Sequence record: OZ035754.1
DNA: 44,622 bases
Strand: one strand, 5' to 3'
Source of the DNA: Kagunavirus BCH953P1
Part shown: positions 4,568 to 21,001 of the stretch, piece after piece
Position numbering within the stretch: position 1 is the first letter of the stretch
Layout of the letters: the number at the start of each line of letters is the position of its first letter
The notes under the pieces: generated by a model
Told to the model about the DNA's origin: nothing
The model's database searches: none
Seen by the model: the letters and a program-made list of their open reading frames with translations, nothing else
Made by a program: the position numbers and the translations under genes

Positions 4568-4583
4568 TCGAGAAAGGAGAAAC

Positions 4584-5079: not shown

Positions 5080-5161
5080 TTGCCTTGCATGTTGGAATAA
5101 TTTATTCTTGACATGTAAATCCGGGTGGCCCGGATTCCAACGTCCAGGGGACATACTGACT

Positions 5162-5863: not shown

Positions 5864-5865
5864 TA

Positions 5866-6915: not shown

Positions 6916-6930
6916 GGTTAAGATATAATC

Positions 6931-6958
6931 GAGAGGGACTTCGGTCCCTCTTTTCATT
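6931..6958 (+). terminator. rho-independent terminator after capsid gene (gagagggac-ttcg-gtccctc then ttttcattt)
   Basis: Stem with TTCG tetraloop followed by T-run, seen directly. Confidence 0.65.
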
Positions 6959-6974
6959 TACTAAGAGGTAAACT

Positions 6975-7274: not shown

Positions 7275-7286
7275 AGGAGCTTAAAA

Positions 7287-7640
7287 ATGGTTGATGTAAT
7301 CAAACGTCGCGTTACTGGCGTCTCTGACGACTCCCCGGCCGATGGTCAGGTAGAAATCGATATGGCAAATATCTCGCCAGCATCTTTTTCTACCCCACTC
7401 AATGCTACCACCACTGTTAGTGCACCCGCCGCATTGACGCTTACCGTTGAGGCAACTGGCGGGATGGCACCTTATTCCTACCAGTGGTTCAAGGATAACA
7501 ACGCCATTGCAGGCGCTACCTCAGCTACGTACACCAAAGCCACCACTGTCGCGTCTGTCGATTCAGGCACGTATAAAGTGGTTGTTCACGATGTGTATGG
7601 TAATATTATCTCCAGTAGCACTGTAGCAACTGTATCTTAA
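7287..7640 (+). CDS. Ig-like domain protein (possible capsid decoration)
   Basis: 117 aa; beta-rich Ig-like signature (YSYQWFKDNNAI...SGTYKVVV); SD AAGGAG. Confidence 0.5.
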   Translation: MVDVIKRRVTGVSDDSPADGQVEIDMANISPASFSTPLNATTTVSAPAALTLTVEATGGMAPYSYQWFKDNNAIAGATSATYTKATTVASVDSGTYKVVVHDVYGNIISSSTVATVS

Positions 7641-7676
7641 TACAACGGCCCTTCGGGGCCGTAATAAGGAAAGGTC

Positions 7677-7856
7677 ATGGCAGATAATTATGTAATCCGC
7701 GAAAAGTACACCCACGTTGATATTGTTGACGGTCAGGTGATGCCTGTTCGCGGTGTGGTAGAGGCGGATGAACTGGTCGCTACTCAACCGGACAACGAAG
7801 AAGCGCACAACAACGGCGGTGGTACTAAGCGACGCCGCCGTAAGTCAGAGGAATAA
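7677..7856 (+). CDS. hypothetical small protein (59 aa, basic C-terminus)
   Basis: ORF below track threshold read from sequence; SD AGGAAAGG before ATG; fills the gap between flanking genes. Confidence 0.35.
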   Translation: MADNYVIREKYTHVDIVDGQVMPVRGVVEADELVATQPDNEEAHNNGGGTKRRRRKSEE

Positions 7857-7859
7857 TTT

Positions 7860-8372
7860 ATGCCGCTAATCGTGGAAGATGGGTCGATAGTACCTAACGC
7901 TGACAGTTACGTTAGTCTGGCTGACGCCCGCGCGTTAGCGGCTAAATACGGCCTTGAGCTGCCGGCGGATGATACCGCCGCCGAAGTTGCCTTACGTAAC
8001 GGTGCTACTTATGTCGGGCTTGCAGAACCGCAGATGTGCGGTCGTCGTGTATCCGCCGAACAGTCCCTTGCATACCCTCGCACTGGCGTAACGTTAAACG
8101 GGTTCCCTGTAGCGAACAATGTCATTCCGAAACAGGTAATTCTTGCGCAGGTAATCGCTGCCGCTACATATGGTACGGGTGCAGAAGTGCGGGCCAACTC
8201 GGACGGTCGTTCCGTGCAGACTGAGCGTGTCGAGGGTGCAGTGACCGTTACGTACTTCAACAACGGCAACAGTGGCGCTACAACCGCGATTACCGCGGCG
8301 GACGACGCCCTACGCCCGTTACTGTGTGGTGGTCTTAACAATGGCTTCTCGTTTAACGTGTACCGGGGTTAA
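7860..8372 (+). CDS. putative head-tail connector / neck protein
   Basis: 170 aa; position in the head-to-tail joining cluster; SD GAGGAA. Confidence 0.4.
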   Translation: MPLIVEDGSIVPNADSYVSLADARALAAKYGLELPADDTAAEVALRNGATYVGLAEPQMCGRRVSAEQSLAYPRTGVTLNGFPVANNVIPKQVILAQVIAAATYGTGAEVRANSDGRSVQTERVEGAVTVTYFNNGNSGATTAITAADDALRPLLCGGLNNGFSFNVYRG

Positions 8373-8374
8373 AA

Positions 8375-8989
8375 ATGGCTAAGACTAAAACAGAGATGTT
8401 TACCCTTATCGGTGCGAATCTTCCGGATAACACCGCCGGAGCTATTACACCTGCGAAGCTACGCGAAGTAATGACCCAGATGGCGGATTCGCCTATTTAC
8501 GCCACTCCCGGTGTTAAAGAGGTTGAAGTTCTCCGCGCTGCGTCGACAGTAACACAAGCGCCTACCGCAGTAGATACAGCATTGCAGGTATCGTTCGGCT
8601 CTGCTCAGGGAAGCGCATCTGACCCGGTAATGATTAATGCTGCAGGGCTTGTTACGTTCAACACCGCAGGTAACTATGCTGTTCGCATCAAGTTACAGGC
8701 TGGGCGCACAGGGGCCAGCGGCACATCCATCCTTTTATCGCGCATTCTTCTGAACGGTTCTCAGTACGGGTCACCCGCAGCTACTAAACTGGTAAGCGCC
8801 GATATTACAATCCCGATTGAGTCTCGCGTAGTTATTAACCCGACCGCAGGCCAGACGTTTGCCGTTCAGATTATGCGGGATAGCGCCGGGAGTGACTTTG
8901 GCGGCGTATATCCGCAAGCGGCTACTGTAACTGCATGGGGTACAGCGCCTTCTGCGCTACTGGTTATCTCGAGACTGGAGGCCGCGTAA
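8375..8989 (+). CDS. hypothetical structural protein
   Basis: 204 aa track ORF tightly packed in the neck cluster. Confidence 0.45.
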   Translation: MAKTKTEMFTLIGANLPDNTAGAITPAKLREVMTQMADSPIYATPGVKEVEVLRAASTVTQAPTAVDTALQVSFGSAQGSASDPVMINAAGLVTFNTAGNYAVRIKLQAGRTGASGTSILLSRILLNGSQYGSPAATKLVSADITIPIESRVVINPTAGQTFAVQIMRDSAGSDFGGVYPQAATVTAWGTAPSALLVISRLEAA

Positions 8990-9348
8990 TGGGTACAGCT
9001 TTCAGCAAACGTATGCAAGGCGTGGGCACGCGCCTGCTAACCAAATTTGGTAGCACGGTATCTCTGATTCGCGCCGGCTCGAAAGTATGGGATGAAGTTC
9101 TCGGCGAGTACGTCTGGTCCGCGGATGAAGTGTTGCCGTTGAAGGCCGTTCCGGTTCCGGTAAACGCGGGACTGGTAAACGGTACGACGATTCAGGCTGG
9201 TGACATGATTGTTAAAGCCAATCACAGCGTCGTTCCGAAGATGGAAGACAAGGTGCAATTCGGAGGCGAGCAATGGTCTGTCGTAGCCATCGAGAAGAAG
9301 ATGGTTAACGATGATGTCGTGGCATACTTTATCCAGGTGAGAAAATGA
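8989..9348 (+). CDS. putative head-tail joining / head closure protein
   Basis: Start at internal ATG overlapping upstream stop (TAATG); 119 aa. Confidence 0.45.
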   Translation: MGTAFSKRMQGVGTRLLTKFGSTVSLIRAGSKVWDEVLGEYVWSADEVLPLKAVPVPVNAGLVNGTTIQAGDMIVKANHSVVPKMEDKVQFGGEQWSVVAIEKKMVNDDVVAYFIQVRK

Positions 9349-9740
9349 GTTTCGCGCTCGATGTCTCTAAGTTCGTGGAAAAGGCGAAGAAGAATCCCGA
9401 GAAGGTGATTCGTCAGGTGTCTATCAAGCTGTTTTCCGCTATTATAAATGCGAGTCCAGTAGATACGGGTCGCTTTCGTATGAACTGGATGGCATCTGGT
9501 GGCACTCCTGCTTTCGGAACTACAGACGCTACGGATAAATCAGGAAACACGGCAACAGGAAACGCTACAAGTTTCGTACTGAAAGCCACCGACTGGCGCG
9601 AGTTCACGCTGACTAATAACCTGCCGTATGCGCAACGGCTGGAGTACGGTTGGTCGCAACAGGCTCCACAAGGCATGGTCAGGACTAATGTGTCACGCTT
9701 CCAGCAACTAATTAACGAAGAAGCCAACAAGGTGAAATGA
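9345..9740 (+). CDS. HK97 gp10-like neck / tail-completion protein
   Basis: 131 aa; motif PVDTGRFRMNW resembles the HK97 gp10 family signature; ATGA overlap with upstream gene. Confidence 0.5.
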   Translation: MSFALDVSKFVEKAKKNPEKVIRQVSIKLFSAIINASPVDTGRFRMNWMASGGTPAFGTTDATDKSGNTATGNATSFVLKATDWREFTLTNNLPYAQRLEYGWSQQAPQGMVRTNVSRFQQLINEEANKVK

Positions 9741-10153
9741 TGGGCTACTTTGAGGACTTAACAAAAGCGTTCGATGTGCCGCTGGTAGCCTTCGGAACCA
9801 CCAACGGCATCAGGGTAGCGCTTGAAAATATCGACGCGCCGACGTCAACCGATACGCCGTATCTGGCAAGTTACATGTTGCTGGCGGATACGGAACAGGC
9901 TGACCTATTCTTCACCGAGCAACGCGCCGGTGTTTATCAGGTCGACATTAACTACGCATCGGTGAAAGGTAGCGCGCCAATCAATAAAATGGCAGACTTA
10001 CTCAACACGGCGTTTAAAGCAGGTAAGTCATTTTCACGTAACGACATCTGCGCCGAGGTTCAATCGGTTAGCCTGGGGCCGCTGATTGTAGAAAACGGAT
10101 GGGCCAAACGACCATTGTCAATTAACTTTATTGCATTCACCAAGAGGCTGTGA
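9737..10153 (+). CDS. putative tail terminator / tail completion protein
   Basis: 138 aa; directly upstream of the major tail gene; ATGA overlap. Confidence 0.45.
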   Translation: MMGYFEDLTKAFDVPLVAFGTTNGIRVALENIDAPTSTDTPYLASYMLLADTEQADLFFTEQRAGVYQVDINYASVKGSAPINKMADLLNTAFKAGKSFSRNDICAEVQSVSLGPLIVENGWAKRPLSINFIAFTKRL

Positions 10154-10155
10154 AT

Positions 10156-11322
10156 ATGGCTACAACTCCTTTTAAGGGCGCGAATACCGCGCAATTCTAT
10201 GTGGCGGAAACTACCCCGGGCGTAACACCGACTAACCCGGTCTGGTCGCCGTTGCGTAACACAGGCGGCGTCCCTGCTATTACCCGAGACACGCTGACAT
10301 CCAACGAACTGGACGGCAGCCGCGAAACTACATCCATCCGCACCGGTAACAAACAGGTTAGCGGAGAATACGCCATCGAGCTTAGTTCGAAAAGCCAGGA
10401 TGACTGGCTGGCAGGTGCCTTAGGCTCTGCGTGGCAATCAGGTGTATCCTTGACTGACCTGTCAATTACCGTCGCACCGGCGGGCAAGACGTTCACCCGT
10501 GCTGATGGCAGCTTTATTTCTGATGGCGTTGAAGTGGGCGACCTGATCGCGTTCACCGACTTAACGGGCGACAACGCTAAACCGTTCATCGTAACCGAGG
10601 TAAGTGCGACTGTTGTCACCGGCGCTGGTATCCAACATACTCTGACCACTGAGACAGTAACTACCGCCGCTAAGACCGGAGACAAACTGGAAACCGGTAG
10701 CCAGTGTAAGACGTTCTCTATCCTCACCTGGTACAAAGGACAGTGCGGCGGCGCCAGCGCATACACGTTGACCAAAGGCGTAGAAGTTTCTGGGTTCACA
10801 GTTGAACAGGCTGTTAATGCGATGGTAACAGGCAGCTTCCCGTTTATCGGGCGTACCCAGGAGATTCTTACCGAGCCACCGTCTGGCTCTGATTTCTCCT
10901 CTGTTATGTTCGAGGATGAGCCGTTCTCCTCTGTTGACGTTTCCGTGTTTGATGGCTCTACGCCGTTACGCTGTGATAGCCTGACCATCACCAACGATAA
11001 CAGCGCGTCCGCACAGTTCGAACTCGGCAACACTAACGTAGCGTTTGTGGAGCGTAGCCGCGCGGCTAATACCTTCTCCATCTCCGGTAAGCTGTACGAC
11101 ATGGCGATGATTCAGAAGTTTATCAACGAACAGCAGGTAGAGATTAACTCTATTCTGGCGGGGGTAAATGGGGCTATGTCTTTTAGTTTGAAACGTGCAG
11201 AACTTACAGCAGTCACACCAGAGATTGGCGGGCCCGAGTCAATCACTCAGAGCATAGAAGGCCAGGCTACGGGAAACCAGTACCAGTCGTCTATTGTTAT
11301 CCAGCGTATCACTTACGCATAA
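10156..11322 (+). CDS. major tail protein
   Basis: About 388 aa; SD AAGAGG 8 nt upstream of ATG 10156 (track ORF starts at GTG 10150); followed by strong terminator. Confidence 0.6.
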   Translation: MATTPFKGANTAQFYVAETTPGVTPTNPVWSPLRNTGGVPAITRDTLTSNELDGSRETTSIRTGNKQVSGEYAIELSSKSQDDWLAGALGSAWQSGVSLTDLSITVAPAGKTFTRADGSFISDGVEVGDLIAFTDLTGDNAKPFIVTEVSATVVTGAGIQHTLTTETVTTAAKTGDKLETGSQCKTFSILTWYKGQCGGASAYTLTKGVEVSGFTVEQAVNAMVTGSFPFIGRTQEILTEPPSGSDFSSVMFEDEPFSSVDVSVFDGSTPLRCDSLTITNDNSASAQFELGNTNVAFVERSRAANTFSISGKLYDMAMIQKFINEQQVEINSILAGVNGAMSFSLKRAELTAVTPEIGGPESITQSIEGQATGNQYQSSIVIQRITYA

Positions 11323-11326
11323 AACT

Positions 11327-11351
11327 AAGGCCCCTTTCGGGGCCTTTTTCT
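11327..11351. terminator. terminator hairpin between convergent genes (aggcccc-tttc-ggggcct then ttttc)
   Basis: Seen directly; separates the plus major tail gene from the minus-strand cassette. Confidence 0.6.
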
Positions 11352-11905
11352 TACAAACCTAATTTTAAAGCAATGTCTATAACGTTGGATTTAACGTCAC
11401 CCGGTATGATGTAGGTGTCGTAATCTTCTACACCATCAACGCCGTACAGATAACCGCGGCTGTCCCCCTCAAACGTATAGCCTTCTCGGTGCAAGCGAAC
11501 GATTCTTACATCATGACCCGCGGTGACGATAGGGGTTACTTCGCTGGAGAACCCGCCATCAGACACCACAAAAACTTCGTCGCCGTCGGGCAAGTTTCCG
11601 GCAAGATACTTACCGAAATAATCATCACCGAATACCGGTTTAATGAATTGCTCCGAAATGGCAATCATGAACTGACGACGGGACAACCCATTAAGAAAAC
11701 CCTCTGGCTTTTCTTTCCGCGCCCGGTCGTCGTAGCCGTCGAGAAATTCGTGGTAAGCATCCGGGCCTAACGCTGCCAGAGCAATATTGAACATTGGATT
11801 CTTGAAACTGGTAGTTCCTTTTGCAAAGCCCATTTCTACCAGCGCCATAGCAAGCGTGTCTTTCCCGCAACCCGCAGGGCCATTAAGAATAATTACCTTA
11901 GCCAT
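11351..11905 (-). CDS. P-loop deoxynucleoside monophosphate kinase-like protein
   Basis: 184 aa; N-terminal Walker A LNGPAGCGKDT resembles the T4 gp1 dNMP kinase P-loop. Confidence 0.55.
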   Translation of the reverse strand: MAKVIILNGPAGCGKDTLAMALVEMGFAKGTTSFKNPMFNIALAALGPDAYHEFLDGYDDRARKEKPEGFLNGLSRRQFMIAISEQFIKPVFGDDYFGKYLAGNLPDGDEVFVVSDGGFSSEVTPIVTAGHDVRIVRLHREGYTFEGDSRGYLYGVDGVEDYDTYIIPGDVKSNVIDIALKLGL

Positions 11906-12393
11906 TATTTATCGCTCCCGTGTGATTTTAAGTATGTAGAGTTCCCGTTACAGTCATATTCAGTGACCGCGTGTGTCGTGATTCCTAAGCCGCGGAAATG
12001 CTTTATTACCGCTGGAGAGTCGTCGAATGCGCACAAGATTCTCTCCAGCCCAATAGCACGCAACACCTCTTCTTTAATTACGATGTCTTTTCTGTTGTCG
12101 TGTTTGCTGCGCATTAACAGAACGTCGAACTTGACATTGTTTTTACGTAACCACTCGCGAGTTTCTTCCTCGGCGTCGTCGCTTCGCCCGGTAAGGATGA
12201 TTACGGTCATCCCGGTATGCCACAACGTGTTGCACAAGTGAATGTTGTCATATATCGGCGAATCATCTTTGCAGGCCATGTTAAAAGGCTTCCACGCCCA
12301 GGTTTCGCCGTAGTTATCTTTTGGCAGCAGGTGTAAGCGATGAGTTCCGTCGGCTAATGTTCCATCTAAATCGAAAATCACAATATCTTTCAT
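11905..12393 (-). CDS. HAD-superfamily phosphatase (nucleotidase / polynucleotide phosphatase-like)
   Basis: 162 aa; N-terminal DLDGTL HAD motif I; ATGA-type overlaps with both neighbours. Confidence 0.65.
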   Translation of the reverse strand: MKDIVIFDLDGTLADGTHRLHLLPKDNYGETWAWKPFNMACKDDSPIYDNIHLCNTLWHTGMTVIILTGRSDDAEEETREWLRKNNVKFDVLLMRSKHDNRKDIVIKEEVLRAIGLERILCAFDDSPAVIKHFRGLGITTHAVTEYDCNGNSTYLKSHGSDK

Positions 12394-13520
12394 CCCAGCA
12401 TCTCCGGTGAAATAGTTAAACGTGCGACCTCGCCATATTCGGCGCTATAAGTAATTACATTTGCACTACGGCCTGACATCCATCCGCCGCGAGAGGCGTA
12501 TGCGTCTTTAGCCGCTAAGGTGCGGTGTTGCTCAACAATCATGTTACGGCTTTCTACAATCTTTTGATGGTGCAGGTGGCCTACGTGGGCGTAGCTGTAA
12601 ACACTCTCGCCGAATGCTTTGCGGAACTTGGCAATCATAACCGGTTCGATAGCGTCGAAGCGTGCTTTATGTCCGTGATGGAAGAACAGCGTAGTTTTGC
12701 CGTGTTGTACCATCTTGTAAACATCCGGCGACGTATCGACAACCACTCGGCTGTCGTTCGAATATAAAACTGTGAACATTTCTGCCAGCCACACGGACCC
12801 TACAGGGTCGTGATTTCCTTGCACGATAAGCAAGCGAACGGTTTTATGTTTAACCAGCGCCATATCAACAACACGGCGCACCATACGAATCATGTAGCGG
12901 ACAAGTTTCTGGTAGCGAGTGTCCGCGTCCAACACATGACGTGACTCAGGAGTAACGGCATCCAGACTATCGAAGTGCGCGAAGTCGCCTAGCAGGTTAA
13001 TAACTCCCGTTCCTGCATCCGGTGCTTTCTGAAACGCCGCATCGAACCAACGGGAGAACAGGTCTTCCGCAATTTTCATGTCCCAGTCGTCGCCACTCTC
13101 GTCGGCCCATGCCAGCATACCGAGATGGAAATCAGATACCGTGTAAAGATTGAGTAGCTTGTCGTCGCGTTTAGCGCGAACGGCTTTAACAGGTGCAACG
13201 GGTGTAATCTCTGACTTCATGCCTTCAATTACGGCTTTCATCAACTCTATCTGACGTTCGGCGTCAGTATCGGTCTTAACCCATTGCAACTTAGTGTTGC
13301 CGAACTCGTCCACAAGTGACGACGTGCCTTTAATTTTGTAGCCGTCCGGGACAAGGTGGCTAACGTCGCGCCCGTGGCCTACGCCTTTCTTAGCCAGCTT
13401 CGCTTTACGGATGCGAATAACGCGGTCTGAGATGCCATATTTACGGGCTATATCGATAGTTTTAACTCCGGCGTTCAATTCTTCCTGTAACTGCTCGTCG
13501 GTTATTTTCTTCCGGGCCAT
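12390..13520 (-). CDS. HTH domain fused to calcineurin-like metallophosphoesterase
   Basis: 376 aa; N-terminal HTH-like segment (IARKYGISDRVIRIRK); phosphoesterase motifs GDFAH, GNHD, GHLH. Confidence 0.65.
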   Translation of the reverse strand: MARKKITDEQLQEELNAGVKTIDIARKYGISDRVIRIRKAKLAKKGVGHGRDVSHLVPDGYKIKGTSSLVDEFGNTKLQWVKTDTDAERQIELMKAVIEGMKSEITPVAPVKAVRAKRDDKLLNLYTVSDFHLGMLAWADESGDDWDMKIAEDLFSRWFDAAFQKAPDAGTGVINLLGDFAHFDSLDAVTPESRHVLDADTRYQKLVRYMIRMVRRVVDMALVKHKTVRLLIVQGNHDPVGSVWLAEMFTVLYSNDSRVVVDTSPDVYKMVQHGKTTLFFHHGHKARFDAIEPVMIAKFRKAFGESVYSYAHVGHLHHQKIVESRNMIVEQHRTLAAKDAYASRGGWMSGRSANVITYSAEYGEVARLTISPEMLG

Positions 13521-13558
13521 GCTTACTTCCTCGTGTTTAGGATTTGTCCTATGCTAGC

Positions 13559-13765
13559 TCACTTCTCGTTAACATTCGAGTTGCACGCCCAGATTAAAAT
13601 AAATACCCACGGCAGCAGAATCCAACCAAGAAACAGGTTGGCCATGAATATCGCTAACTTCGCTTTATGGTTACGGAAGTACGCAACCAGGAAAGGTGCG
13701 AAATAAGCGAGAAGTGCAAACAGAATTAAGGAAACCGGTAAACTTGACATTTTAAACCCCTTCAT
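13559..13765 (-). CDS. small membrane protein (two predicted TM helices)
   Basis: 68 aa hydrophobic ORF; first gene downstream of promoter P2. Confidence 0.5.
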   Translation of the reverse strand: MKGFKMSSLPVSLILFALLAYFAPFLVAYFRNHKAKLAIFMANLFLGWILLPWVFILIWACNSNVNEK

Positions 13766-13780
13766 TGTTGGTGTAAGTGA

Positions 13781-13809
13781 ATAGTACCCTATTATATTGG
13801 GGTGCGCAA
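13781..13809 (-). promoter_or_regulatory. sigma70-type promoter P2 (TTGCGC-N17-TACTAT), identical copy of P1
   Basis: Same about 33-nt sequence as at 4236..4264; precedes the minus-strand cassette 13765..11351. Confidence 0.6.
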
Positions 13810-13917
13810 GTAATGTGATAGAATAATTTTGCGCCTAGTGTCGCACACGAAAAGCGGGTGGTTCCCGTCTGGCGCATTTACCCTTAACCTGTAACCTCTT
13901 AACCAAAGGATTAAAGA

Positions 13918-14337
13918 ATGAAACTTTCTGATTTCTATTTCGAAGAGAAAGCACTGGTAGGCAAGAAGATGCCGATTCTGCTACCAAACGGCGAAGACTC
14001 CGGTGAGTGGCTTAATGTTGTAAGTCCGGATGCCGATGTCGCCGTTAAAGCGGGGCGTGCTTTCATTATCGCATACCGTCGCGGGCTGGCGCGTTTCGAA
14101 GAACTGGAAAAAGCTGCCAAAGAATCCGGCGACTATACTGAATATAACCTGGCGATTAATGAGCTAGCGGAAGACCTCAACCGGCAACTCGCGGCGGAAG
14201 TCGTAAACGGCTGGAGCTTCGACGACGAGCCTTTCTCTAAGGAAGCGTTTAACAAATTGCTCGACCAGTTTAAAGGGCTTGGAACCCAGGTAGCAGCGTT
14301 CCATAACGCTGAGCGCAAAGCATTACAGGAAAAGTAG
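13918..14337 (+). CDS. tail assembly chaperone (G-like)
   Basis: 139 aa immediately upstream of the tape measure gene; SD AAGGA. Confidence 0.55.
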   Translation: MKLSDFYFEEKALVGKKMPILLPNGEDSGEWLNVVSPDADVAVKAGRAFIIAYRRGLARFEELEKAAKESGDYTEYNLAINELAEDLNRQLAAEVVNGWSFDDEPFSKEAFNKLLDQFKGLGTQVAAFHNAERKALQEK

Positions 14338-14702
14338 ACGCGCTGTACAGGTTCGCCACCTACGAGTTCGTTGATAAGCATAAAATCAGAGAGTTTGATT
14401 CTATAGCTGACGGACACGAACAGGCGCTTATCGCGATGGGTGTAATCGATAAGAAAAAACGTGCAGCGCGACGGGGTGGGCCAGAATGCCCGCCCCTTTT
14501 TATATCCACCTTTGAGACGTACTGTGACATTAAGTTTACGCGACACGTGCGCGAGGACGCTGTAGTATTGTTTGCAAGAGAATCCGTTACGTGGCAAGAC
14601 CTGAAAGCCTATCTCGATGTTACGCAAAAACAGCTTAGCCTGTTCGAGATAGACATTATCATGGGCTTAGAAGCAATCTTTGAAGGTAGAAATCATGGCT
14701 GA
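14313..14702 (+). CDS. tail assembly chaperone -1 frame extension (T-like domain, expressed as a G-T fusion by programmed frameshift)
   Basis: The -1 frame is open from 14313 to 14702 and overlaps the last codons of the chaperone gene; A-AAG slippery context (GGAAAAG) at about 14328..14334; canonical position before tape measure. Confidence 0.5.
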   Translation, partial: AQSITGKVDALYRFATYEFVDKHKIREFDSIADGHEQALIAMGVIDKKKRAARRGGPECPPLFISTFETYCDIKFTRHVREDAVVLFARESVTWQDLKAYLDVTQKQLSLFEIDIIMGLEAIFEGRNHG

Positions 14703-16968
14703 TACCGCTAGCTTGATAGTACGAGTATCTTCGACCGGCGTCGATAAAACCACATCACAACTGAACGGGCTTACCAAAGCCGCAGGTGCCGCCGCGGCTG
14801 CCGTTGTCAGTCTGGAAACCGCTAAGCAGGTGTTCAGCGCGCTGGTGGACTCTCAGCGCAACTTCGATAAGCTGAACTCCGGCCTCATCACAATGACCGG
14901 TAGCGCTGAGAACGCGGCTAAGGCTTTCAGCGTCCTGCAACAGTTCGCAAAAGAAACCCCGTATGGTCTCAATCAGGCGGTAGAAGGTTTCACTAAGCTG
15001 GTTGCCCTAGGCCTGAACCCCAGCAAAGAGGCGTTAATCTCCTACGGCAATACCGCTGCCGCGATGGGTAAAGACCTTAATCAGATGATTGAGGCCGTAG
15101 CGGACGCCAGTACATTTGAGTTTGAACGACTAAAAGAGTTTGGCATCAAGTCGTCACAGCAGGCGGATACCGTTTCTTTCACGTTCCGCGGCGTAACAAC
15201 TACTGTCAAAAAGAACTCCGAAGAGATTCAGAAATACCTGCTAAACATCGGTAACACTGATTTCGCCGGGGCGATGGAGACGCGTTCGAAGACCTTAGAT
15301 GGTCAGTTATCCAGCCTGGCGGACTCTTTCGATGGCCTTGTTCTTGCGGTAGCGCAATCCGGTTTTGGCGATGCCGTAGGTGAGCAGGCCGCGATGGCAG
15401 AAGACGCAGTAACGGCGCTTACCGACGCCATCGCGTCTAATGAGATAGCTGCCACACTCCAGGACTGGGCGACGCTGTTCAATGAGTCGTTCAAGTTTAT
15501 TTCTGACGCCTTGAATGACCTGGCATACGACACCGAGGACAAATCCGCAGACATGTCTGACTCGCTGGGGACTATACCGGATGCTATCCGTGAGTGGTTG
15601 CCTGAGATTCAAAGAATAGCGAAGGATATGTATGTAGAGTTCCAGGCTATTGACATGCAAGCGGCGCTTCTGGCGCAGTCTATTAAAGCCGCCTTCACCC
15701 CAGGTGAAACGGCGGCGGGTACATTTGCCGCGGGTCAGGCCGCCGTTCAGTTCTTCAAAGACACTGAAAAGGCGAAAAACAAGGCTGAGGCGGACGGGAT
15801 AACCCAACGCTCGAAGCAGCGTAAGAAAGAAATTGAGGAACAGCGCAAGCAGTACGACGAGCGCAAGAAGCAAGAAATTGACTTAGCCAGCCTTGTTAAT
15901 AAAAAAGGTGGAACTGGCGGCACCGGTAACGCCGACGATAAAGCGGCAAAAGCAGCCGCTAAGAAAGCTGAGCAATTGCGAAATCAGGCGCAGGATTACC
16001 TCGACACTTTGGCCCGTCAGAACAACGACGAGTTAAAGGCTATTGACGCGCAGGAACAGCAGAAACTGGCTAAAGCAAAAGAGTTCTACAGCCAGGGTGC
16101 GTTGTCTCTGAAAGAATACGAACAAGCTAAAACAGCTATCGTCCTCGAAGCCGGACAAAAACGGCAAGATGAACTGGATAAACGCCAGAAAGAAGCCCTG
16201 GAAAAGCAGCAGAAAGGTGACGACTTCATGGCCCAGATTATGGGCCAGAACGCTACTGAGCTTGAGCTTCTCGACATCCAGGAACAGCAGAAACTGGCGG
16301 TAGCCGATAAGTACCGGGAGCAAGGGCTTATTAGCGAGAAGCAGTATCAGGCCGCGCTTAACGCCATCAACGAGCAATATGCCACCAAGCGCGCCGACGC
16401 AACGGCAACCGCCTTCGGTAACATGGCCTCAAACATCGGGTCTGCGTTGGGGGAGGCTTCCGGTGCGTATAAGGCATTCGCTATCGTACAGGCCACTATC
16501 GCCACGTACACCGCAGCTATTGAGGCGTACAAGTCAACGGCTGCTATCCCTGTTGTTGGCCCGTTCCTTGCCCCTGTAGCCGCTGCCGCTGCCGTTGGGG
16601 CGGGTATGGCGCAGGTTTCCGCTATCAGGTCTGCGCGTGAGCAGGGGGGCCAGTTATCCGCGGGGCAGGCTTCCACCATCGCCGAACGCGGTAAACCCGA
16701 AGTTATCATGCCCGCTGGCGCATCGCGTGTGCGCACCGCGCAGCAGATGAAAGAAATTATGGGGCAAAACGGGTCTTCTTCCGGACCATCTAATGTTACT
16801 ATCGTAAACAACACGAGTTCTCAAATCGGCAATGTATCCACCGAACAGGATGATGAGGGCCGTCTGCGTATCATCATAGAAGAGCAAGTTGCTGCATCTT
16901 TGCAGAACAGCAACAGTAAGATTAGCAAGGCCCGCAAGGCCACAAGAAATGCGCCGGGGTTTAAATAA
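14680..16968 (+). CDS. tail tape measure protein
   Basis: 762 aa, coiled-coil rich with internal repeats and hydrophobic C-terminal segment; follows chaperones. Confidence 0.85.
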   Translation: MKVEIMADTASLIVRVSSTGVDKTTSQLNGLTKAAGAAAAAVVSLETAKQVFSALVDSQRNFDKLNSGLITMTGSAENAAKAFSVLQQFAKETPYGLNQAVEGFTKLVALGLNPSKEALISYGNTAAAMGKDLNQMIEAVADASTFEFERLKEFGIKSSQQADTVSFTFRGVTTTVKKNSEEIQKYLLNIGNTDFAGAMETRSKTLDGQLSSLADSFDGLVLAVAQSGFGDAVGEQAAMAEDAVTALTDAIASNEIAATLQDWATLFNESFKFISDALNDLAYDTEDKSADMSDSLGTIPDAIREWLPEIQRIAKDMYVEFQAIDMQAALLAQSIKAAFTPGETAAGTFAAGQAAVQFFKDTEKAKNKAEADGITQRSKQRKKEIEEQRKQYDERKKQEIDLASLVNKKGGTGGTGNADDKAAKAAAKKAEQLRNQAQDYLDTLARQNNDELKAIDAQEQQKLAKAKEFYSQGALSLKEYEQAKTAIVLEAGQKRQDELDKRQKEALEKQQKGDDFMAQIMGQNATELELLDIQEQQKLAVADKYREQGLISEKQYQAALNAINEQYATKRADATATAFGNMASNIGSALGEASGAYKAFAIVQATIATYTAAIEAYKSTAAIPVVGPFLAPVAAAAAVGAGMAQVSAIRSAREQGGQLSAGQASTIAERGKPEVIMPAGASRVRTAQQMKEIMGQNGSSSGPSNVTIVNNTSSQIGNVSTEQDDEGRLRIIIEEQVAASLQNSNSKISKARKATRNAPGFK

Positions 16969-17468
16969 TGAGCGACTTATATTTCCCACGTAGCCTTAAG
17001 CCGGTGGTGTCGAAAGGCTACTCAATGACCAGACGCAACAACGTCTGGAGTGTCGATTTAGCGGGCGGCGGTGTACGTCAGGGGCGCGACACATATTACG
17101 ACGTGTTTCCGATAAGCGTAACCCTGATTACATCAGCGCTGGGGCGACAGGCGTTTCTGTCGTTCCTCGAAAAAGTAGACGGCGGCGCGTCAAGTTTCTG
17201 GATGGCGCACGACTTCGGCATGGGTATTGAGGACTATCAGGTAACCATTACGTCCACCATCGCCGAGTCCACCGAAGATGGTATTAACTGGACGATTACT
17301 TTCACGGCAACCGCAGAGAAATCGCCGTTCCAGGATGAAGATAATAAGTGCCTTGTTAACAATCTGCCAGATTTGTATGGCTGTTATGGTGACGGGCTGG
17401 GATGTTTCCTTAAAGCCTACGGAACCGCACAATCAACGTTCCCACGAATTTGGGATCCGATGCAATGA
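16968..17468 (+). CDS. minor tail protein (distal tail component)
   Basis: 166 aa directly after tape measure; TAATG overlap. Confidence 0.5.
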   Translation: MSDLYFPRSLKPVVSKGYSMTRRNNVWSVDLAGGGVRQGRDTYYDVFPISVTLITSALGRQAFLSFLEKVDGGASSFWMAHDFGMGIEDYQVTITSTIAESTEDGINWTITFTATAEKSPFQDEDNKCLVNNLPDLYGCYGDGLGCFLKAYGTAQSTFPRIWDPMQ

Positions 17469-17581
17469 CAGAACAAGAGATAAAAGACCTGAGAGAATAC
17501 CTGAAGGACTGGTATTTAGCCATTAAGAAGGGACGTGATATCGAGAACGCCTACTCTTGGTTACGAGGGTATGTGTCATGA
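17465..17581 (+). CDS. hypothetical small protein (38 aa)
   Basis: Short ORF read from sequence, ATGA overlaps at both ends. Confidence 0.25.
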   Translation: MTEQEIKDLREYLKDWYLAIKKGRDIENAYSWLRGYVS

Positions 17582-18093
17582 GTCTGGAATCAGTAGAAGC
17601 CGCCTATCGCCGTAAGCTGGCCTCAAATCCCGACGGCGAGATGGATTACATCACATTACAAATCAGTCACCCGTTGCTATCGAAGACGTACTATCTTGTG
17701 CGCGGGCTACAGGAACTCACAGCAACACTGGAGACAGGCGAAACAATCACGTTCGAACCCACCCCGATGGAGGCGTCGGGGGCTTCAAACAACAGCGATA
17801 TGGACCAGACGACTACGTTTACTCTACCGGATATTCTCAATCAACTGGATGATGAGATGGATAAAATCCCGATGAGTAACACCGAGTTGCCGAAGTTCGT
17901 CTTCCGCCGTTACGTCAGCACCGACCTGTCTTATCCGGCTGACGGCCCGGTAGTGTACGAGTTGCAGGCCATCAACCAGGAGAAAGGCGAGTTCTCTGCG
18001 GATGTCGGTACACCTATGCTGAACCAACGAAGCACTGGTATACTTATGACACCTAAAGAGATACCGTTATTACGCGGCCTGTTGACCACATGA
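17578..18093 (+). CDS. minor tail protein
   Basis: Track ORF 17557..18093; start taken at internal ATG overlapping upstream stop. Confidence 0.5.
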   Translation: MSLESVEAAYRRKLASNPDGEMDYITLQISHPLLSKTYYLVRGLQELTATLETGETITFEPTPMEASGASNNSDMDQTTTFTLPDILNQLDDEMDKIPMSNTELPKFVFRRYVSTDLSYPADGPVVYELQAINQEKGEFSADVGTPMLNQRSTGILMTPKEIPLLRGLLTT

Positions 18094-18455
18094 ATATTAA
18101 CGACTACACGGGTATACCTTACGACTTTCGCAAGCGCAATTGCTGGCATCACGTGCGCATTGTACGGGCGGATGCCGGGTTAGAAACTCCGGCGTTCGAT
18201 GTTACAAGCCCAACGGCGATTAACGAAGCGTTTGACGAAGGCCACCGCGACACGAAGGGGCTTACGAAAATTGATAAGCCTGAAAACTTCTGTGCGGTGC
18301 TTATGGGGTATCGCCGTGGTGGTCGTATAGTGTGGCACGCAGGAGTTTACTTCGACGGGATGGTGAGTCATTGTGAGCTTGCTTCCCGCCAGGTACGGCT
18401 TGACAGGCTGGCGGACCTCAGAGACACGTACACGGAGATTGAATTTTGGCGATAA
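18090..18455 (+). CDS. NlpC/P60-family tail assembly / tail-associated peptidase
   Basis: 121 aa; candidate catalytic Cys in RKRNCWHHV and His in VWHAGVY; ATGA overlap. Confidence 0.55.
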   Translation: MNINDYTGIPYDFRKRNCWHHVRIVRADAGLETPAFDVTSPTAINEAFDEGHRDTKGLTKIDKPENFCAVLMGYRRGGRIVWHAGVYFDGMVSHCELASRQVRLDRLADLRDTYTEIEFWR

Positions 18456-21001
18456 TCCTGCACTACACTCGAAATGCGGAAGGCGCTTTCGACCGTACAA
18501 AACACGTCGGGATGCCGATGGAGTTTGTCGTTAACCGTATTCCTGACGGCGTGCCGGTGCGCGTCTACCTCGGCGAGATTGGCGATGATACAGATGTAAC
18601 CGACGACTTCGAAGCGCTCAAAGACGAAGATGCCGTGTACCACATTATCGAAGGTGCGGGTAGCGGGGCGCTTGGTGCGGTTAGTAAGGTGTTCGGTTTT
18701 ATCCTTAAGCCAATCGCTAAGTTGTTTGGGTTGAACATGTCCGCAAACGCCAACTACACGGCGACTAACAACCAGACAACGTCACCGAATAACAGCCTCA
18801 CAGACCGCTCCAACAAGCCGCGTCCTTACGAGCGTTCTTATGACATCTGCGGTACTGTGCAGACAATCCCTAATGACCTGATGCAGACGTACAAGGCGTT
18901 CAACTCAACGGGTGCTTTGCTGGAGTATTCGTACTATGACGCAGGGCGCGGGCATCTGCATATTGAGGCTGATGGCGTCACGGAAGGTGACACTCTGATA
19001 AGCGACATCACAGGTTCCTCTGTTGCCGTGTATGCGCCGTATACTTCCCCGAACAACACCGCATCTCCGCAGCTACAAATCGGCGACGTCATTGACCAGA
19101 AACTCTATGTGACATATTCCAATGACGACGTTGACGGTATTGTACTGAAAGCGCCAAACGACATCGGAGCTAACCCAAGCGCTGACGGTACAGCAAAACG
19201 TATATCAAACACCGGCTACATCTATGACCCGTCGGGCGACTCTGCTTTTTCTGAGTTTCTTAGCGTTGGTGATGTGGCGGTGCTTAGCAACTTTGACGTT
19301 GCTGACGTCACTAACCTGAACGGCTCGTTTGAGGTTTTATATGTCGACGACTTCGAGGTTCGGTTGTACGTCGGGAATATAGGTAATTGGGGAAACCTTA
19401 ATAGCGGAGAGACTTACGCACTTACAGAGCGTTCAGATACGTTTATCGGCCCGAGCAACACCTATGACGTATCCCTGACCGACTGGTATTACATGGTGCG
19501 CGGAGAAGTTGACCGGGTGCTTGCTAACGTTGCCGGGCAGAACGGCCTCTACAAATACGACGGTGGGTATAACCGCACCAGCGTAACGGTGGAACTCCAG
19601 TACCAAATGATTGATTCTCAGCGTAACCCGTTGAGCGACATTTACACAGTACAGGCCACCATTACAGGCAACAATACGGATTACGTCGGTACGTCCATTT
19701 ATGGGCAGTTACCGACGGCGTCCCGTTTCCGCGCCCGTATGCGCCGCATAACGAATTATGACAAGGACTACGACGGAACAGTAAGCGACGAGATAACGTT
19801 CATTAACCTGTATGGGCAGTCACTGGACACCACACCGCACTACGGCAACAGAACTACCGTACATTGCGCCCGTAAACAGACGCCGCGCGCCGCCAGCATA
19901 GACAACCCGGAACTGCGCATGATTGCGACCGAGATGTGCTACAAATACTTAGGCAATGGAGTATTCGATACGGTAATGTCGCCAAATACTCAGGCTGTGC
20001 AGTCGCTAATCAGACTGGCACGTGACCCGGCGGTGGGTAATCTGCAACTGACAACGGCAAACATGGACAAGTTACTCGCCGTGCAGGAAGAGATTGAGTC
20101 CTATTTCGGAAGTGAATTAGCGGGGCAGTTCTGCTACACGTTCGACGACTACGACACCACGATGCAGGACATCGTTCAGACTATAGCGGAAGCCGTGTTC
20201 TGCACCGCGTACCGTAAAGGCGCGGATATTATGCTGCGATTCGACCGTCCGGTTGCTGGGCCTGAGATGGTGTTCACACACCGCAGCAAAACTACCGGTA
20301 CGGAGAAGTGGTCCCGCACGTTCAACGATTCGACGACCTACGATAGTCTGTCATTCTCGTACATCGACCCGGATACTAACGTACAGGAAACGATTTATAT
20401 CCCGGAAGAACTCGGAGCAAACACCGAGGAATACGAATCGAAGGGCGTGCGGAACTATCAGCAAGCGTACTGGCTGGCGTGGCGTCGCTACCAGCGCAAC
20501 ATGTTAAGTAAAGTTGTCGTAGAGTTCGAAGCGACCGAAGAGGGGGCACTCGCTACACCGGGCGGCGTAATCAGTGTGGTTAAAGGATCTCGCATCGCTC
20601 CTCAGGACGGCTATGTTGTTGCCGTTAATGGGCTTACGCTTACGCTGTCTCAGCCTGTTACGTTTACCCCAGGGGATGGCCATTCCATCATACTCAAGAA
20701 GCGCGACGGCTCGGTGCAGAGTATCTCTGTTATCAAAGGAAGTCACGACCGTGAGGTGATTATGCTCTCCGCGCCGGAGGAGGCAATCTACACAGGGAAT
20801 AGTGCACTAAAAACTGAGTTTTCATTCGGCAACGAAGCAAGGCATAATGCTCAGAAGATAGTTGTTTCCTCAATCGACCCGGGCGACGACCGCACGGTCA
20901 GGATTACTGGTTACAACTATGACGACGGATTCTATAAATACGACGGCGTCGCGCCATACGGCAGCGGTTTCTCCGACGGATACAGCAACGGTTTTTATTA
21001 A
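18446..21001 (+). CDS. tail tip / central tail fiber protein (host-specificity J-like)
   Basis: 851 aa, large beta-rich protein in distal tail cluster; likely TTG start at 18446, start uncertain. Confidence 0.6.
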   Translation: MAIILHYTRNAEGAFDRTKHVGMPMEFVVNRIPDGVPVRVYLGEIGDDTDVTDDFEALKDEDAVYHIIEGAGSGALGAVSKVFGFILKPIAKLFGLNMSANANYTATNNQTTSPNNSLTDRSNKPRPYERSYDICGTVQTIPNDLMQTYKAFNSTGALLEYSYYDAGRGHLHIEADGVTEGDTLISDITGSSVAVYAPYTSPNNTASPQLQIGDVIDQKLYVTYSNDDVDGIVLKAPNDIGANPSADGTAKRISNTGYIYDPSGDSAFSEFLSVGDVAVLSNFDVADVTNLNGSFEVLYVDDFEVRLYVGNIGNWGNLNSGETYALTERSDTFIGPSNTYDVSLTDWYYMVRGEVDRVLANVAGQNGLYKYDGGYNRTSVTVELQYQMIDSQRNPLSDIYTVQATITGNNTDYVGTSIYGQLPTASRFRARMRRITNYDKDYDGTVSDEITFINLYGQSLDTTPHYGNRTTVHCARKQTPRAASIDNPELRMIATEMCYKYLGNGVFDTVMSPNTQAVQSLIRLARDPAVGNLQLTTANMDKLLAVQEEIESYFGSELAGQFCYTFDDYDTTMQDIVQTIAEAVFCTAYRKGADIMLRFDRPVAGPEMVFTHRSKTTGTEKWSRTFNDSTTYDSLSFSYIDPDTNVQETIYIPEELGANTEEYESKGVRNYQQAYWLAWRRYQRNMLSKVVVEFEATEEGALATPGGVISVVKGSRIAPQDGYVVAVNGLTLTLSQPVTFTPGDGHSIILKKRDGSVQSISVIKGSHDREVIMLSAPEEAIYTGNSALKTEFSFGNEARHNAQKIVVSSIDPGDDRTVRITGYNYDDGFYKYDGVAPYGSGFSDGYSNGFY

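What the first reader, a model, noticed from the sequence alone, without database searches (positions are those of the whole stretch)
14313..14340. Programmed -1 frameshift site for the tail assembly chaperone G-T fusion
The -1 frame opens at 14313, overlaps the last eight codons of the chaperone gene (stop 14335..14337) and stays open for 129 codons to 14702, ending inside the start of the tape measure gene. The overlap contains GGAAAAG, where an A-AAG slip would fuse the frames. This matches the conserved G/GT mechanism of long-tailed phages.
Basis: partly seen in the sequence, partly recalled or inferred. Interest (0 to 1): 0.4.

Follow-up and report, generated by a model that had tools for sequence, protein, structure and literature searches.

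The report
Tail chaperone G-T frameshift site
This is the ordinary, already-annotated -1 ribosomal frameshift that lets a K1G-like E. coli phage make a short tail-assembly chaperone and, rarely, a longer fused version; the only twist is that the slip signal is a minimal A-AAG placed directly against the stop codon.

Summary
The window is a K1G-like Kagunavirus (Guernseyvirinae). The chaperone gene G is 13918-14337. The -1 frame is open from 14313 to 14699, with its stop at 14700-14702 overlapping the tape measure ATG at 14695. GGAAAAG lies at 14328-14334. The -1 ORF is a Phage_TAC_18 domain, and G plus the -1 ORF together cover one 259-position PHROG "tail assembly chaperone" profile. In 121 related loci (75 distinct sequence contexts, down to about 40-50% protein identity), A_AAG is invariant. 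A stop codon follows it directly in 74 of 75 contexts. Conserved -1-frame protein (K|VxALYxFAxW) starts at the very next codon. No canonical start codon is conserved in the -1 frame. In the window the first is ATG 14436, which has no Shine-Dalgarno sequence. The fusion built with a slip at A_AAG in phage K1G is exactly the deposited protein ADA82267.1/YP_009168804.1, so the feature is already known. There are three nuances. The heptamer G_GAA_AAG is near-cognate rather than canonical. No downstream stimulatory structure is conserved. GCGCTG at 14340-14345 is conserved even at wobble positions. Two side observations are more novel: a covarying intrinsic-terminator hairpin inside the T segment (14473-14505), and an int-alpA-type structured leader upstream of G.

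The parts
13918..14337 (+). Gene G: tail assembly chaperone, 139 aa, stop TAG 14335-14337
   Evidence: ORF list and translation. PHROG 15027 E=5.6e-69. Pfam Phage_TAC_4 21.9 bits against a 21.1 cut-off. Shine-Dalgarno AAGGA, dG -5.4.
14328..14334 (+). Shift site G_GAA_AAG. The core tetranucleotide A_AAG is 14331-14334, and AAG is the last sense codon of G.
   Evidence: Sequence. A_AAG is invariant in 75/75 distinct contexts. G_GAA_AAG occurs in 55/75, always with G at position 1 although the preceding codon encodes Q, S, L, A or M. In L021/L022 the overlap is only 7 nt, which pins the shift to the last two codons.
14335..14337 (+). Zero-frame stop codon TAG directly abutting the slip codon; a candidate 'shifty stop' component of the signal
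   Evidence: A stop (TAG, TAA or TGA) follows AAG directly in 74/75 contexts. The exception, L083, has it one codon later.
14340..14345 (+). GCGCTG, 6-11 nt 3' of the slip codon, conserved at wobble positions as well; a possible spacer element of the signal (unexplained)
   Evidence: Position table over 39 non-redundant representatives: 36-39/39 at each of the six positions, whereas neighbouring wobble positions vary freely.
14334..14702 (+). T segment: -1 frame, 122 codons from GTA 14334 to GGC 14697-14699, then TGA 14700-14702
   Evidence: Translation. Pfam Phage_TAC_18 1.1e-18. PHROG 15027 positions 135-259. tblastn matches start at residues 1-7 of the -1 ORF in 493 phage records. The alignment of 14 diverse T segments has its most conserved block at the N-terminus.
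13918..14702 (+). Predicted G-T fusion product, 261 aa, junction ...ERKALQEK|VDALYRFATYEF...
   Evidence: Built. The K1G equivalent (260 aa) is an exact match to ADA82267.1 / YP_009168804.1 / QNO11738.1, and a joined CDS is present in NC_027993.1 and MT711525.1.
14695..16968 (+). Tape measure protein gene, start overlapping the T stop by 8 nt
   Evidence: PHROG 1538 E=1.4e-185; Pfam TMP_3. Shine-Dalgarno GAAGG, dG -5.0.
14473..14505 (+). Intrinsic-terminator-like hairpin GGGGTGGGC-CAGAAT-GCCCGCCCC followed by TTTTTATAT, lying inside the T segment. Side finding: a candidate attenuator between G and the tape measure gene.
   Evidence: Top-listed site of the scan of 1-20000; with 36371-36391 it has the most G-C pairs (8) of any site in 1-40000. 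dG -20.6, z -4.1, 0/200 shuffles. Conserved in about 11 clades with compensatory changes: covariation score 0.281 against 0.123 shuffled, 0/500.
13828..13892 (+). int-alpA-type (RF02996) structured RNA in the 5' leader of G. Side finding.
   Evidence: cmscan 32.4 bits (gathering score 35.8), E=1.5e-4 in the window. Relatives reach the gathering score: 36.6 and 35.8. RNAalifold gives 13 pairs, 5 with compensatory changes.
13816..13824 (+). TGaTAGAAT, an extended -10-like promoter element just upstream of the leader RNA (inferred from sequence only)
   Evidence: Read. The TAGAAT block is conserved in most relatives that carry the leader. The consensus scan did not call it because the -35 is poor.

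Best explanation
Most ribosomes translating G (13918-14337) terminate at TAG 14335 and release the 139-aa chaperone. A small fraction slip back one nucleotide while tRNA-Lys (anticodon mnm5s2UUU) is on the last sense codon AAG (14332-14334). The tRNA re-pairs with AAA (14331-14333), and the ribosome then reads GTA 14334-14336 and the following 121 codons. The result is a 261-aa G-T fusion (...ALQEK|VDALYRF...) ending at TGA 14700-14702, inside the start of the tape measure gene.

Two features plausibly help the slip. The stop codon is decoded slowly when it sits in the A site. In this lineage the P-site tRNA-Glu can also re-pair near-cognately from GAA to GGA, with a G-U pair in the middle position.

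By analogy with lambda, abundant G and the G part of GT coat the tape measure protein, and the rare T domain recruits the tail tube protein.

[quoted passage not shown] Inferred: that the slip happens, its efficiency, which tRNA(s) slip, and the roles of G and T.
For: - Coordinates and frames.
- Family hits that join G and the -1 ORF into one chaperone profile.
- A_AAG is invariant in 75/75 distinct contexts from 121 loci. The preceding codon is GAA, GCA, TCA, GGA or AAA, five different amino acids, and always ends in A. The Lys codon is always AAG. A stop is adjacent in 74/75.
- A 7-nt overlap in L021/L022 confines the shift to the last two codons.
- Conserved -1-frame protein begins at the codon after the slip, and tblastn homology reaches residues 1-7 of the -1 ORF.
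- Variable sites in 14334-14435 fall 0/1/9 on codon positions 1/2/3 of the -1 frame.
- The first canonical start in the -1 frame shifts between lineages: offsets +9, +30, +36, +93, +102, +324 and others. ATG 14436 has a background-level Shine-Dalgarno score (-2.5 against a median of -2.2) and is Ile in Cornellvirus-like clades.
- In-frame A_AAG is rare in window genes: 5/2481 codons.
- The K1G fusion with this junction equals the deposited protein, and a joined CDS exists in RefSeq.
- Literature: A_AAG is the most shift-prone tetramer in E. coli and is used with non-re-pairing P-site codons in IS1222 and B. subtilis cdd (PMC5009743; PMC4066793). GGAAAA-type 'twofour' motifs with G-U re-pairing are seen in other chaperone frameshifts (PMC10885494).
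Against: - No experiment (reporter, mass spectrometry, genetics) is available for any Guernseyvirinae member in the literature I could search.
- In E. coli reporters, tetramer motifs without a stimulator are barely above background: 0.147% against 0.112% (PMC4066793).
- I found no conserved stimulatory structure within about 85 nt downstream. The consensus fold is -0.88 kcal/mol with no covariation, and the window's own fold has z=-1.65. There is no Rfam frameshift element. Efficiency could therefore be very low unless the adjacent stop, the near-cognate G_GAA re-pairing or the conserved GCGCUG compensates.
- The heptamer is not canonical. One published announcement for a relative states that there is 'no canonical slippery sequence' (PMC6776780).
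- Several public records annotate T as a separate gene.
Confidence: 0.85

Rival explanations
1. T is a separate gene started by its own initiation. The start would be either the near-cognate CTG at 14343 (TTG in Jerseyvirus-type relatives), using the AGGA at 14327-14330 as a ribosome binding site or re-initiating after termination at TAG, or ATG 14436. No fusion protein would be made.
For: - Several public annotations call a separate ORF starting 6 nt after the G stop: Ent1, Golestan, Bas74, Bas70, Schulenburg and Shashou, some with an annotated RBS.
- AGGA lies 12 nt upstream of 14343 with dG -4.3 kcal/mol.
- The Shashou authors saw no canonical slippery sequence.
Against: - In the window and in most clades the codon is CTG. 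From my own knowledge this is a very poor initiator in E. coli.
- TTG occurs only in the Jerseyvirus/Golestan-type clade.
- Clades with N_GCA_AAG or G_TCA_AAG have no AGGA.
- ATG 14436 has no Shine-Dalgarno sequence and is not conserved. It would also leave 34 conserved codons, with a 0/1/9 substitution pattern, untranslated.
- Separate initiation does not explain why the base before AAG is always A across five different penultimate codons, or why Lys is always AAG.
Confidence: 0.08
2. The frame change is made at the RNA level: RNA polymerase stutters on the A run (14330-14333) and inserts an extra A, so that standard translation of a minority of transcripts yields the fusion.
For: The product would be identical (...QEK-VDAL...). 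Transcriptional slippage is used for some phage and IS fusions (PMC5009743, general statement).
Against: The run is only four A in the window and three in the GCA/TCA clades. From my own knowledge this is far shorter than the runs of about 7 or more A/T needed for productive slippage. The invariant G after the run and the adjacent stop are unexplained by this model.
Confidence: 0.02
3. The -1 ORF is expressed little or not at all from this arrangement, or the apparent shift is an assembly or sequence artefact.
For: No direct expression data. The tetramer alone is weak in reporters.
Against: The same -1 offset and motif occur in 121 independently assembled loci. There is strong purifying selection on T: 1/3/25 variable sites by codon position over 366 nt. 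T protein identity is about 100% in relatives with 94-96% DNA identity.
Confidence: 0.03

Closest known systems
Phage K1G ORF22A/22B, joined CDS 'tail assembly chaperone' (ADA82267.1 / YP_009168804.1; also QNO11738.1 of fKuEco01)
   Same: About 95% identical DNA, the same CAG GAA AAG TAG site, and the same junction QEK|VDAL. The K1G fusion I built with a slip at A_AAG is an exact match to the deposited protein.
   Different: The window's G has one extra Asp (FDDEP against FDEP; 139 against 138 aa). The window's closest record (OZ035805.1, 99.9%) is unannotated.
Lambda G/GT frameshift and its counterparts in long-tailed phages (Levin 1993; Xu, Hendrix & Duda 2004, as summarised in PMC5009743)
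   Same: There are two ORFs directly upstream of the tape measure gene, with the downstream one in the -1 frame. The slip occurs near the 3' end of G on an ..A_AAG codon read by tRNA-Lys. G is about 140 aa and the fusion about 260-280 aa. No stimulatory structure is evident.
   Different: Lambda uses the canonical G_GGA_AAG. Here the site is G_GAA_AAG (near-cognate P-site re-pairing), and in sister clades it is N_GCA_AAG or G_TCA_AAG with no P-site re-pairing. The slip codon is the very last sense codon, abutting the stop. The tail tube gene is not adjacent: four reverse-strand genes intervene. Sequence families also differ (Phage_TAC_4/Phage_TAC_18).
Hexanucleotide/tetranucleotide -1 sites NNA_AAG: IS1222 (G_CGA_AAG), B. 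subtilis cdd (A_CGA_AAG) and synthetic A_AAG constructs (PMC5009743; PMC4066793)
   Same: The slip rests on tRNA-Lys moving from AAG to AAA, without cognate P-site re-pairing. The penultimate codons seen here (GCA, TCA, GAA) are, from my own knowledge, read by tRNAs with modified wobble U. This fits the reported dependence on wobble propensity of the 5' codon.
   Different: Those sites work with identified stimulators (an upstream Shine-Dalgarno-like sequence or a downstream structure). None is detectable here. The candidates here are instead the adjacent stop and a conserved GCGCUG spacer.
E. coli dnaX A_AAA_AAG
   Same: Same A-site codon and tRNA. The most distant relative found (L121) actually carries A_AAA_AAG followed by TAG.
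   Different: dnaX has an upstream Shine-Dalgarno-like element and a downstream hairpin, and shifts at about 50%. No such elements are present here.

Membership tests
G/GT tail assembly chaperone programmed -1 frameshift (Xu, Hendrix & Duda 2004 type) | Two ORFs lying between the major tail (tube) gene and the tape measure gene, immediately upstream of the latter | tested here: met
   G 13918-14337 and T 14334-14702 abut the tape measure gene at 14695. The tube gene (10150-11322, Phage_tube_2 3.2e-39) is upstream but separated by four reverse-strand genes, 11351-13765.
G/GT tail assembly chaperone programmed -1 frameshift (Xu, Hendrix & Duda 2004 type) | Downstream ORF in the -1 frame, overlapping the 3' end of the upstream ORF, with no conserved initiation signal of its own | tested here: met
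   The overlap is 22 nt. There is no ATG, GTG or TTG before 14436. Start positions are not conserved, and the Shine-Dalgarno score at 14436 is at background.
G/GT tail assembly chaperone programmed -1 frameshift (Xu, Hendrix & Duda 2004 type) | Canonical X_XXY_YYZ slippery heptamer in the overlap | tested here: not met
   G_GAA_AAG is not X_XXY_YYZ. Only 2 of 75 related contexts are canonical: G_GGA_AAG in the RP180 type and A_AAA_AAG in L121. The weaker criterion, a Z_ZZN tetramer (A_AAG), is met in 75/75.
G/GT tail assembly chaperone programmed -1 frameshift (Xu, Hendrix & Duda 2004 type) | Arrangement and shift site conserved in relatives despite sequence divergence | tested here: met
   121 loci down to about 50% G identity and 38% T identity keep the -1 offset, A_AAG and the junction motif.
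G/GT tail assembly chaperone programmed -1 frameshift (Xu, Hendrix & Duda 2004 type) | Products belong to tail assembly chaperone families | tested here: met
   Pfam Phage_TAC_4 (21.9 bits, cut-off 21.1) and Phage_TAC_18 (67.5 bits). PHROG 15027 covers both halves. No solved-structure relative was found by sequence.
G/GT tail assembly chaperone programmed -1 frameshift (Xu, Hendrix & Duda 2004 type) | A fusion protein is actually made at a low fixed ratio and is needed for tail assembly; it is absent from virions | not testable with these tools
   No experimental report was found for Guernseyvirinae.
Rho-independent (intrinsic) terminator (for the hairpin at 14473-14505) | G+C-rich hairpin immediately followed by a U tract on the transcribed strand | tested here: met
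   9 pairs (8 G-C), loop of 6, then TTTTTATAT. dG -20.6, z -4.1. Covariation in the lower stem across clades.
Rho-independent (intrinsic) terminator (for the hairpin at 14473-14505) | Produces transcript 3' ends in vivo | not testable with these tools
   Needs Term-seq, 3' RACE or a Northern blot of infected cells.
int-alpA RNA (Rfam RF02996) (for 13828-13892) | Covariance-model score at or above the family gathering score, over the full-length model | tested here: inconclusive
   The window scores 32.4 bits against a gathering score of 35.8 (E=1.5e-4), over the full model 1-71. Homologous positions in Golestan (36.6) and Bas70 (35.8) reach the gathering score. The three-stem structure has 5/13 compensatory pairs.

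The most novel reading that the evidence does not exclude
Two layers may set the stoichiometry in this phage group.

(i) A structure-free, minimal frameshift cassette. It consists of A_AAG as the last sense codon, the abutting stop codon as the pause element, and a conserved GCGCUG 6-11 nt downstream.

(ii) A covarying intrinsic terminator placed inside the T segment. Ribosome traffic there is normally about nil because nearly all ribosomes stop at the G stop. Transcription into the tape measure and distal tail genes would therefore be attenuated relative to G. Read-through might even be favoured on transcripts whose leading ribosome has frameshifted and so masks the hairpin.
Probability: 0.15. 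Interest if true: 0.6.

Novelty: already known. Interest (0 to 1): 0.2.

Why it matters
For the finding as given, it matters little. It confirms a textbook recoding event that is already in the RefSeq annotation of a 95%-identical phage.

Its practical value is for annotation. Public records of Guernseyvirinae are split between a joined CDS and a separately started 'hypothetical protein', and one announcement says there is no canonical slippery sequence. The comparative data here show that the conserved signal is A_AAG plus stop, and that no start codon is conserved. This argues for the joined annotation throughout the subfamily.

The site is also a clean natural example of a tetranucleotide or near-cognate -1 site that apparently works without an RNA structure. 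That would be worth a reporter assay.

The terminator embedded in the rarely translated T segment, if functional, would be a new way of keeping G in excess over downstream tail proteins.

Tried and rejected
- **Downstream stimulatory structure.** RNAalifold on 15 diverse sequences covering about 85 nt after the site gave only 3 invariant pairs (-0.88 kcal/mol). The window's own fold was not significant (z -1.65). Rejected.
- **Rfam frameshift elements.** None in 13700-14900.
- **Upstream Shine-Dalgarno-like stimulator.** AGGA at 14327-14330 directly abuts the slip site. From my own knowledge that is too close for the -1 stimulatory spacing of about 10 nt. It is also absent in the GCA/TCA clades. 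Rejected as a conserved stimulator.
- **Pairing of AGCGC (14312-14316) with GCGCU (14340-14344) around the site.** Possible in the window but not conserved in relatives, by inspection of the sequences. Rejected.
- **Solved-structure relatives of the fusion.** Only a spurious hit (7uek, E=0.0011, 33 residues).
- **A put-like antitermination link between the int-alpA leader and the T-internal terminator.** Co-occurrence fails. The leader occurs without the terminator in Jerseyvirus and Cornellvirus. The terminator occurs without the leader in the VLCpiS11a-like (Klebsiella phage) clade, Serratia phage Tsm2 and, with a weaker hairpin, Serratia phage Eta. Not supported.
- **PMID 25663216** (the Jerseyvirinae proposal cited in annotations) is not held in the library.
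- **Literature searches** for experimental evidence in this phage group, or for a terminator within T, found nothing relevant.

Full report
**Identity of the window.** A 1-kb query around the finding matches 116 phage records. The best is Kagunavirus BCH953P1 (OZ035805.1) at 99.9%. The K1G/K1ind/RP180 group of Escherichia phages matches at 94-96%. The window is therefore a K1G-like Kagunavirus (Guernseyvirinae), a virulent siphovirus of E. coli.

**Observation.**
- G runs from ATG 13918 to TAG 14335-14337 (139 aa).
- The -1 frame has a TGA at 14310-14312. It is then open for 129 sense codons (14313-14699) and ends at TGA 14700-14702.
- That stop overlaps the tape measure ATG (14695) by 8 nt.
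- GGAAAAG occupies 14328-14334. It reads CAG GAA AAG TAG in the G frame and GGA AAA GTA in the -1 frame.
- The ORF listing shows no ATG, GTG or TTG in the -1 frame before 14436.

**What the pieces are.**
- G matches Pfam Phage_TAC_4, just above the gathering score, and PHROG 15027 'tail assembly chaperone' at profile positions 1-138.
- The -1 ORF matches Pfam Phage_TAC_18 (1.1e-18). It continues the same 259-position PHROG profile at positions 135-259.
- The next gene is a tape measure protein (PHROG 1538, 1.4e-185).
- 10150-11322 is a tail tube protein.
- The PHROG profile itself is thus built from fused G-T proteins.

**Comparative test of the frameshift.**
- I collected 121 related loci. 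They come from annotated phage records and two scans of viral contigs. They reach down to about 50% identity in G and 38% in T, and give 75 distinct 121-nt contexts.
- A_AAG is present in 75/75 contexts, and T follows it in 75/75. A stop codon (TAG, TAA or TGA) follows directly in 74/75. The exception, L083, has it one codon later.
- The penultimate codon varies: GAA, GCA, TCA, GGA and AAA, five different amino acids. It always ends in A, and the Lys codon is always AAG. This is nucleotide-level selection, not protein-level selection.
- In L021/L022 the -1 frame opens only 7 nt before the stop, which confines the shift to the last two codons.
- In-frame A_AAG is otherwise rare in this genome: 5 in 2481 codons, and the only one in G is the terminal one.
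- Where the penultimate codon is GAA (55/75), the preceding base is always G, although that codon encodes Q, S, L, A or M. G_GAA_AAG as a heptamer therefore seems selected in this lineage. tRNA-Glu can re-pair to GGA with a central G-U pair. PRFect describes the same logic for GGAAAA-type 'twofour' motifs (PMC10885494).
- Where the codon is GCA or TCA, the preceding base is free. This matches the known hexanucleotide type NNA_AAG (IS1222, cdd; PMC5009743).
- Two lineages have become canonical: G_GGA_AAG (RP180 type) and A_AAA_AAG (L121).

**Is T translated from the junction?**
- The conserved protein motif K|VxALYxFAxWxF begins at the first -1-frame codon after the slip.
- tblastn matches of the -1 ORF start at residues 1-7 in 493 phage records. 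All 80 contig matches start at residue 1 of the T segment.
- Among 18 close relatives, the 102 nt between the slip and the window's first ATG carry 10 variable sites. Nine are at -1-frame codon position 3, one at position 2 and none at position 1.
- The first canonical start in the -1 frame moves between lineages: offsets +9 TTG, +30/+36 GTG, +93, +102 ATG, +324 ATG and others.
- The window's ATG 14436 has a background-level Shine-Dalgarno score. It is Ile in Cornellvirus-like clades.

**The main rival.**
- Several public records annotate T as a separate gene starting 6 nt after the G stop.
- The Shashou announcement states there is 'no canonical slippery sequence' (PMC6776780). Shashou nevertheless has the same CAG GAA AAG TAG. 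Its annotated start is a TTG with the AGGA of the slip heptamer as RBS.
- That TTG exists only in the Jerseyvirus/Golestan-type clade. The window and most clades have CTG there, and the GCA/TCA clades lack AGGA.
- Separate initiation therefore cannot be the conserved route. It also does not explain the A_AAG conservation.

**Already known.**
- RefSeq K1G (NC_027993.1) and fKuEco01 carry a two-piece joined CDS 'tail assembly chaperone' over the homologous region.
- I built the K1G fusion with a slip at A_AAG (junction QEK|VDAL). An exact-sequence look-up returns it as ADA82267.1 / YP_009168804.1 / QNO11738.1.
- The window's own 261-aa fusion is not in the collection, because its G has one extra Asp.

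**Mechanistic caveats.**
- Sharma et al. (PMC4066793) rank A_AAG as by far the best tetramer in E. coli. Without a stimulator, however, tetramers are barely above background (0.147% against 0.112%). With a pseudoknot they reach up to 5.6%.
- I found no conserved downstream structure, no Rfam element and no properly spaced Shine-Dalgarno-like element.
- The candidates for stimulation are the abutting stop codon ('shifty stop', Weiss et al. 1987; from my own knowledge), the near-cognate G_GAA re-pairing, and a hexamer GCGCUG at +6 to +11. The hexamer is conserved at 36-39 of 39 non-redundant representatives, including both wobble positions, while neighbouring wobble positions vary freely. Its role is unexplained.
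- Which tRNA(s) slip, and the efficiency, cannot be decided computationally.

**Side finding 1: a terminator-like hairpin inside T.**
- The top-listed intrinsic-terminator-like site of 1-20000 lies inside the T segment, on the + strand. With the site at 36371-36391 it has the most G-C pairs (8) of any site scanned in 1-40000.
- Its sequence is GGGGTGGGC-CAGAAT-GCCCGCCCC at 14473-14496, followed by TTTTTATAT. dG is -20.6 kcal/mol, z is -4.1, and 0/200 shuffles fold as well.
- The other strong + strand sites in 1-20000 are all intergenic. Two of them follow the major head gene (6931-6952) and the tail tube gene (11327-11346).
- The hairpin and T-run recur at the same place in about 11 clades. 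The lower stem changes by compensatory substitutions that also change the encoded amino acids on both sides: E/K/T/R upstream, S/L/F/V/P downstream.
- On 29 sequences, the covariation score is 0.281 against 0.123 for shuffles (0/500). It is also better than any slid register. Four of nine pairs have double changes.
- Caveat: those 29 sequences were chosen from clades that have the hairpin. It is absent from Jerseyvirus and Cornellvirus and present in Klebsiella phage VLCpiS11a.
- My reading is an inference. It is a partial terminator or 3' stabiliser that marks the end of an abundant G message. It sits in a segment that almost no ribosome translates, so G stays in excess over the tape measure and distal tail proteins.
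- A literature search found no description of such an element.

**Side finding 2: a structured leader upstream of G.**
- The 5' leader of G (13828-13892) matches Rfam int-alpA RNA (RF02996) at 32.4 bits, against a gathering score of 35.8.
- Homologous positions in Golestan and Bas70 reach the gathering score.
- A three-stem consensus has 5 of 13 pairs with compensatory changes.
- A TGnTAGAAT extended -10-like element lies directly upstream.
- A functional link to the T-internal terminator (put-like antitermination) is not supported, because the two elements do not co-occur consistently.

**Verdict.** The feature is an already annotated member of the classical G/GT frameshift. Its minor mechanistic interest is a minimal A_AAG-plus-stop signal with no structure. 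Two neighbouring RNA-level elements deserve separate follow-up.

Noticed in passing
window 14473-14505 (+): A strong intrinsic-terminator-like hairpin (9 bp, 8 G-C, dG -20.6, then TTTTTATAT) lies inside the T (-1 frame) coding segment, about 136 nt after the G stop and about 190 nt before the tape measure ATG. It is conserved with compensatory changes in about 11 clades and absent in Jerseyvirus and Cornellvirus. It may be an attenuator that keeps G in excess over downstream tail proteins.
   Followed up: partly
window 13828-13892 (+): The 5' leader of the G-T-tape measure operon is an int-alpA-type structured RNA (RF02996). It scores 32.4 bits in the window and reaches the gathering score in two relatives. 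The three stems have 5/13 covarying pairs. Its function here is unknown.
   Followed up: partly
window 13791-13824: This looks like a divergent promoter region. An extended -10-like TGaTAGAAT (13816-13824, + strand) sits directly upstream of the leader RNA. A 10/12 sigma-70 match on the - strand (13819->13791) faces the superinfection-immunity gene block.
   Followed up: no
window 14340-14345: GCGCTG (Ala-Leu in the -1 frame), 6-11 nt after the slip codon, is conserved in 36-39 of 39 non-redundant relatives, including both wobble positions. Other wobble positions nearby vary freely. This looks like an RNA-level constraint of unknown role.
   Followed up: partly
window 14215-14223 (G codons ~100-102): The window's G has one extra Asp (FDDEP, GACGACGAG) compared with FDEP in all other K1G-like relatives examined (139 against 138 aa). 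This is a 3-nt tandem duplication.
   Followed up: no
window 11351-13765 (- strand): A block of reverse-strand genes separates the tail tube gene from G, so the tube-G-T-tape measure order is interrupted. The block comprises a kinase-like gene, a polynucleotide kinase/HAD phosphatase, a metallophosphoesterase annotated 'DNA repair exonuclease', and an Imm-type superinfection immunity gene. The arrangement is shared by K1G, Ent1 and Shashou.
   Followed up: no
window 6931-6952 and 11327-11346: Strong hairpin+T-run sites directly follow the major head protein gene (5866-6915) and the tail tube gene (10150-11322; this one is bidirectional). This fits a pattern of terminators or stabilisers after the most abundantly needed structural genes.
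   Followed up: partly
L011/L056 (RP180-like) and L121, at the homologous slip site: Two lineages have converted the site to canonical heptamers: G_GGA_AAG (identical to lambda's) and A_AAA_AAG (identical to dnaX's). Both are still followed directly by TAG. They are natural variants useful for comparing efficiencies.
   Followed up: partly
Public records: L002 (Bas74), L034 (Ent1), L039 (Golestan), L040 (Bas70), L041 (Schulenburg), L122 (Shashou): Annotation is inconsistent across the subfamily. T is called as a separate ORF starting at TTG, or even CTG (Bas74), 6 nt after the G stop. K1G and fKuEco01 instead carry the joined CDS.
   Followed up: yes
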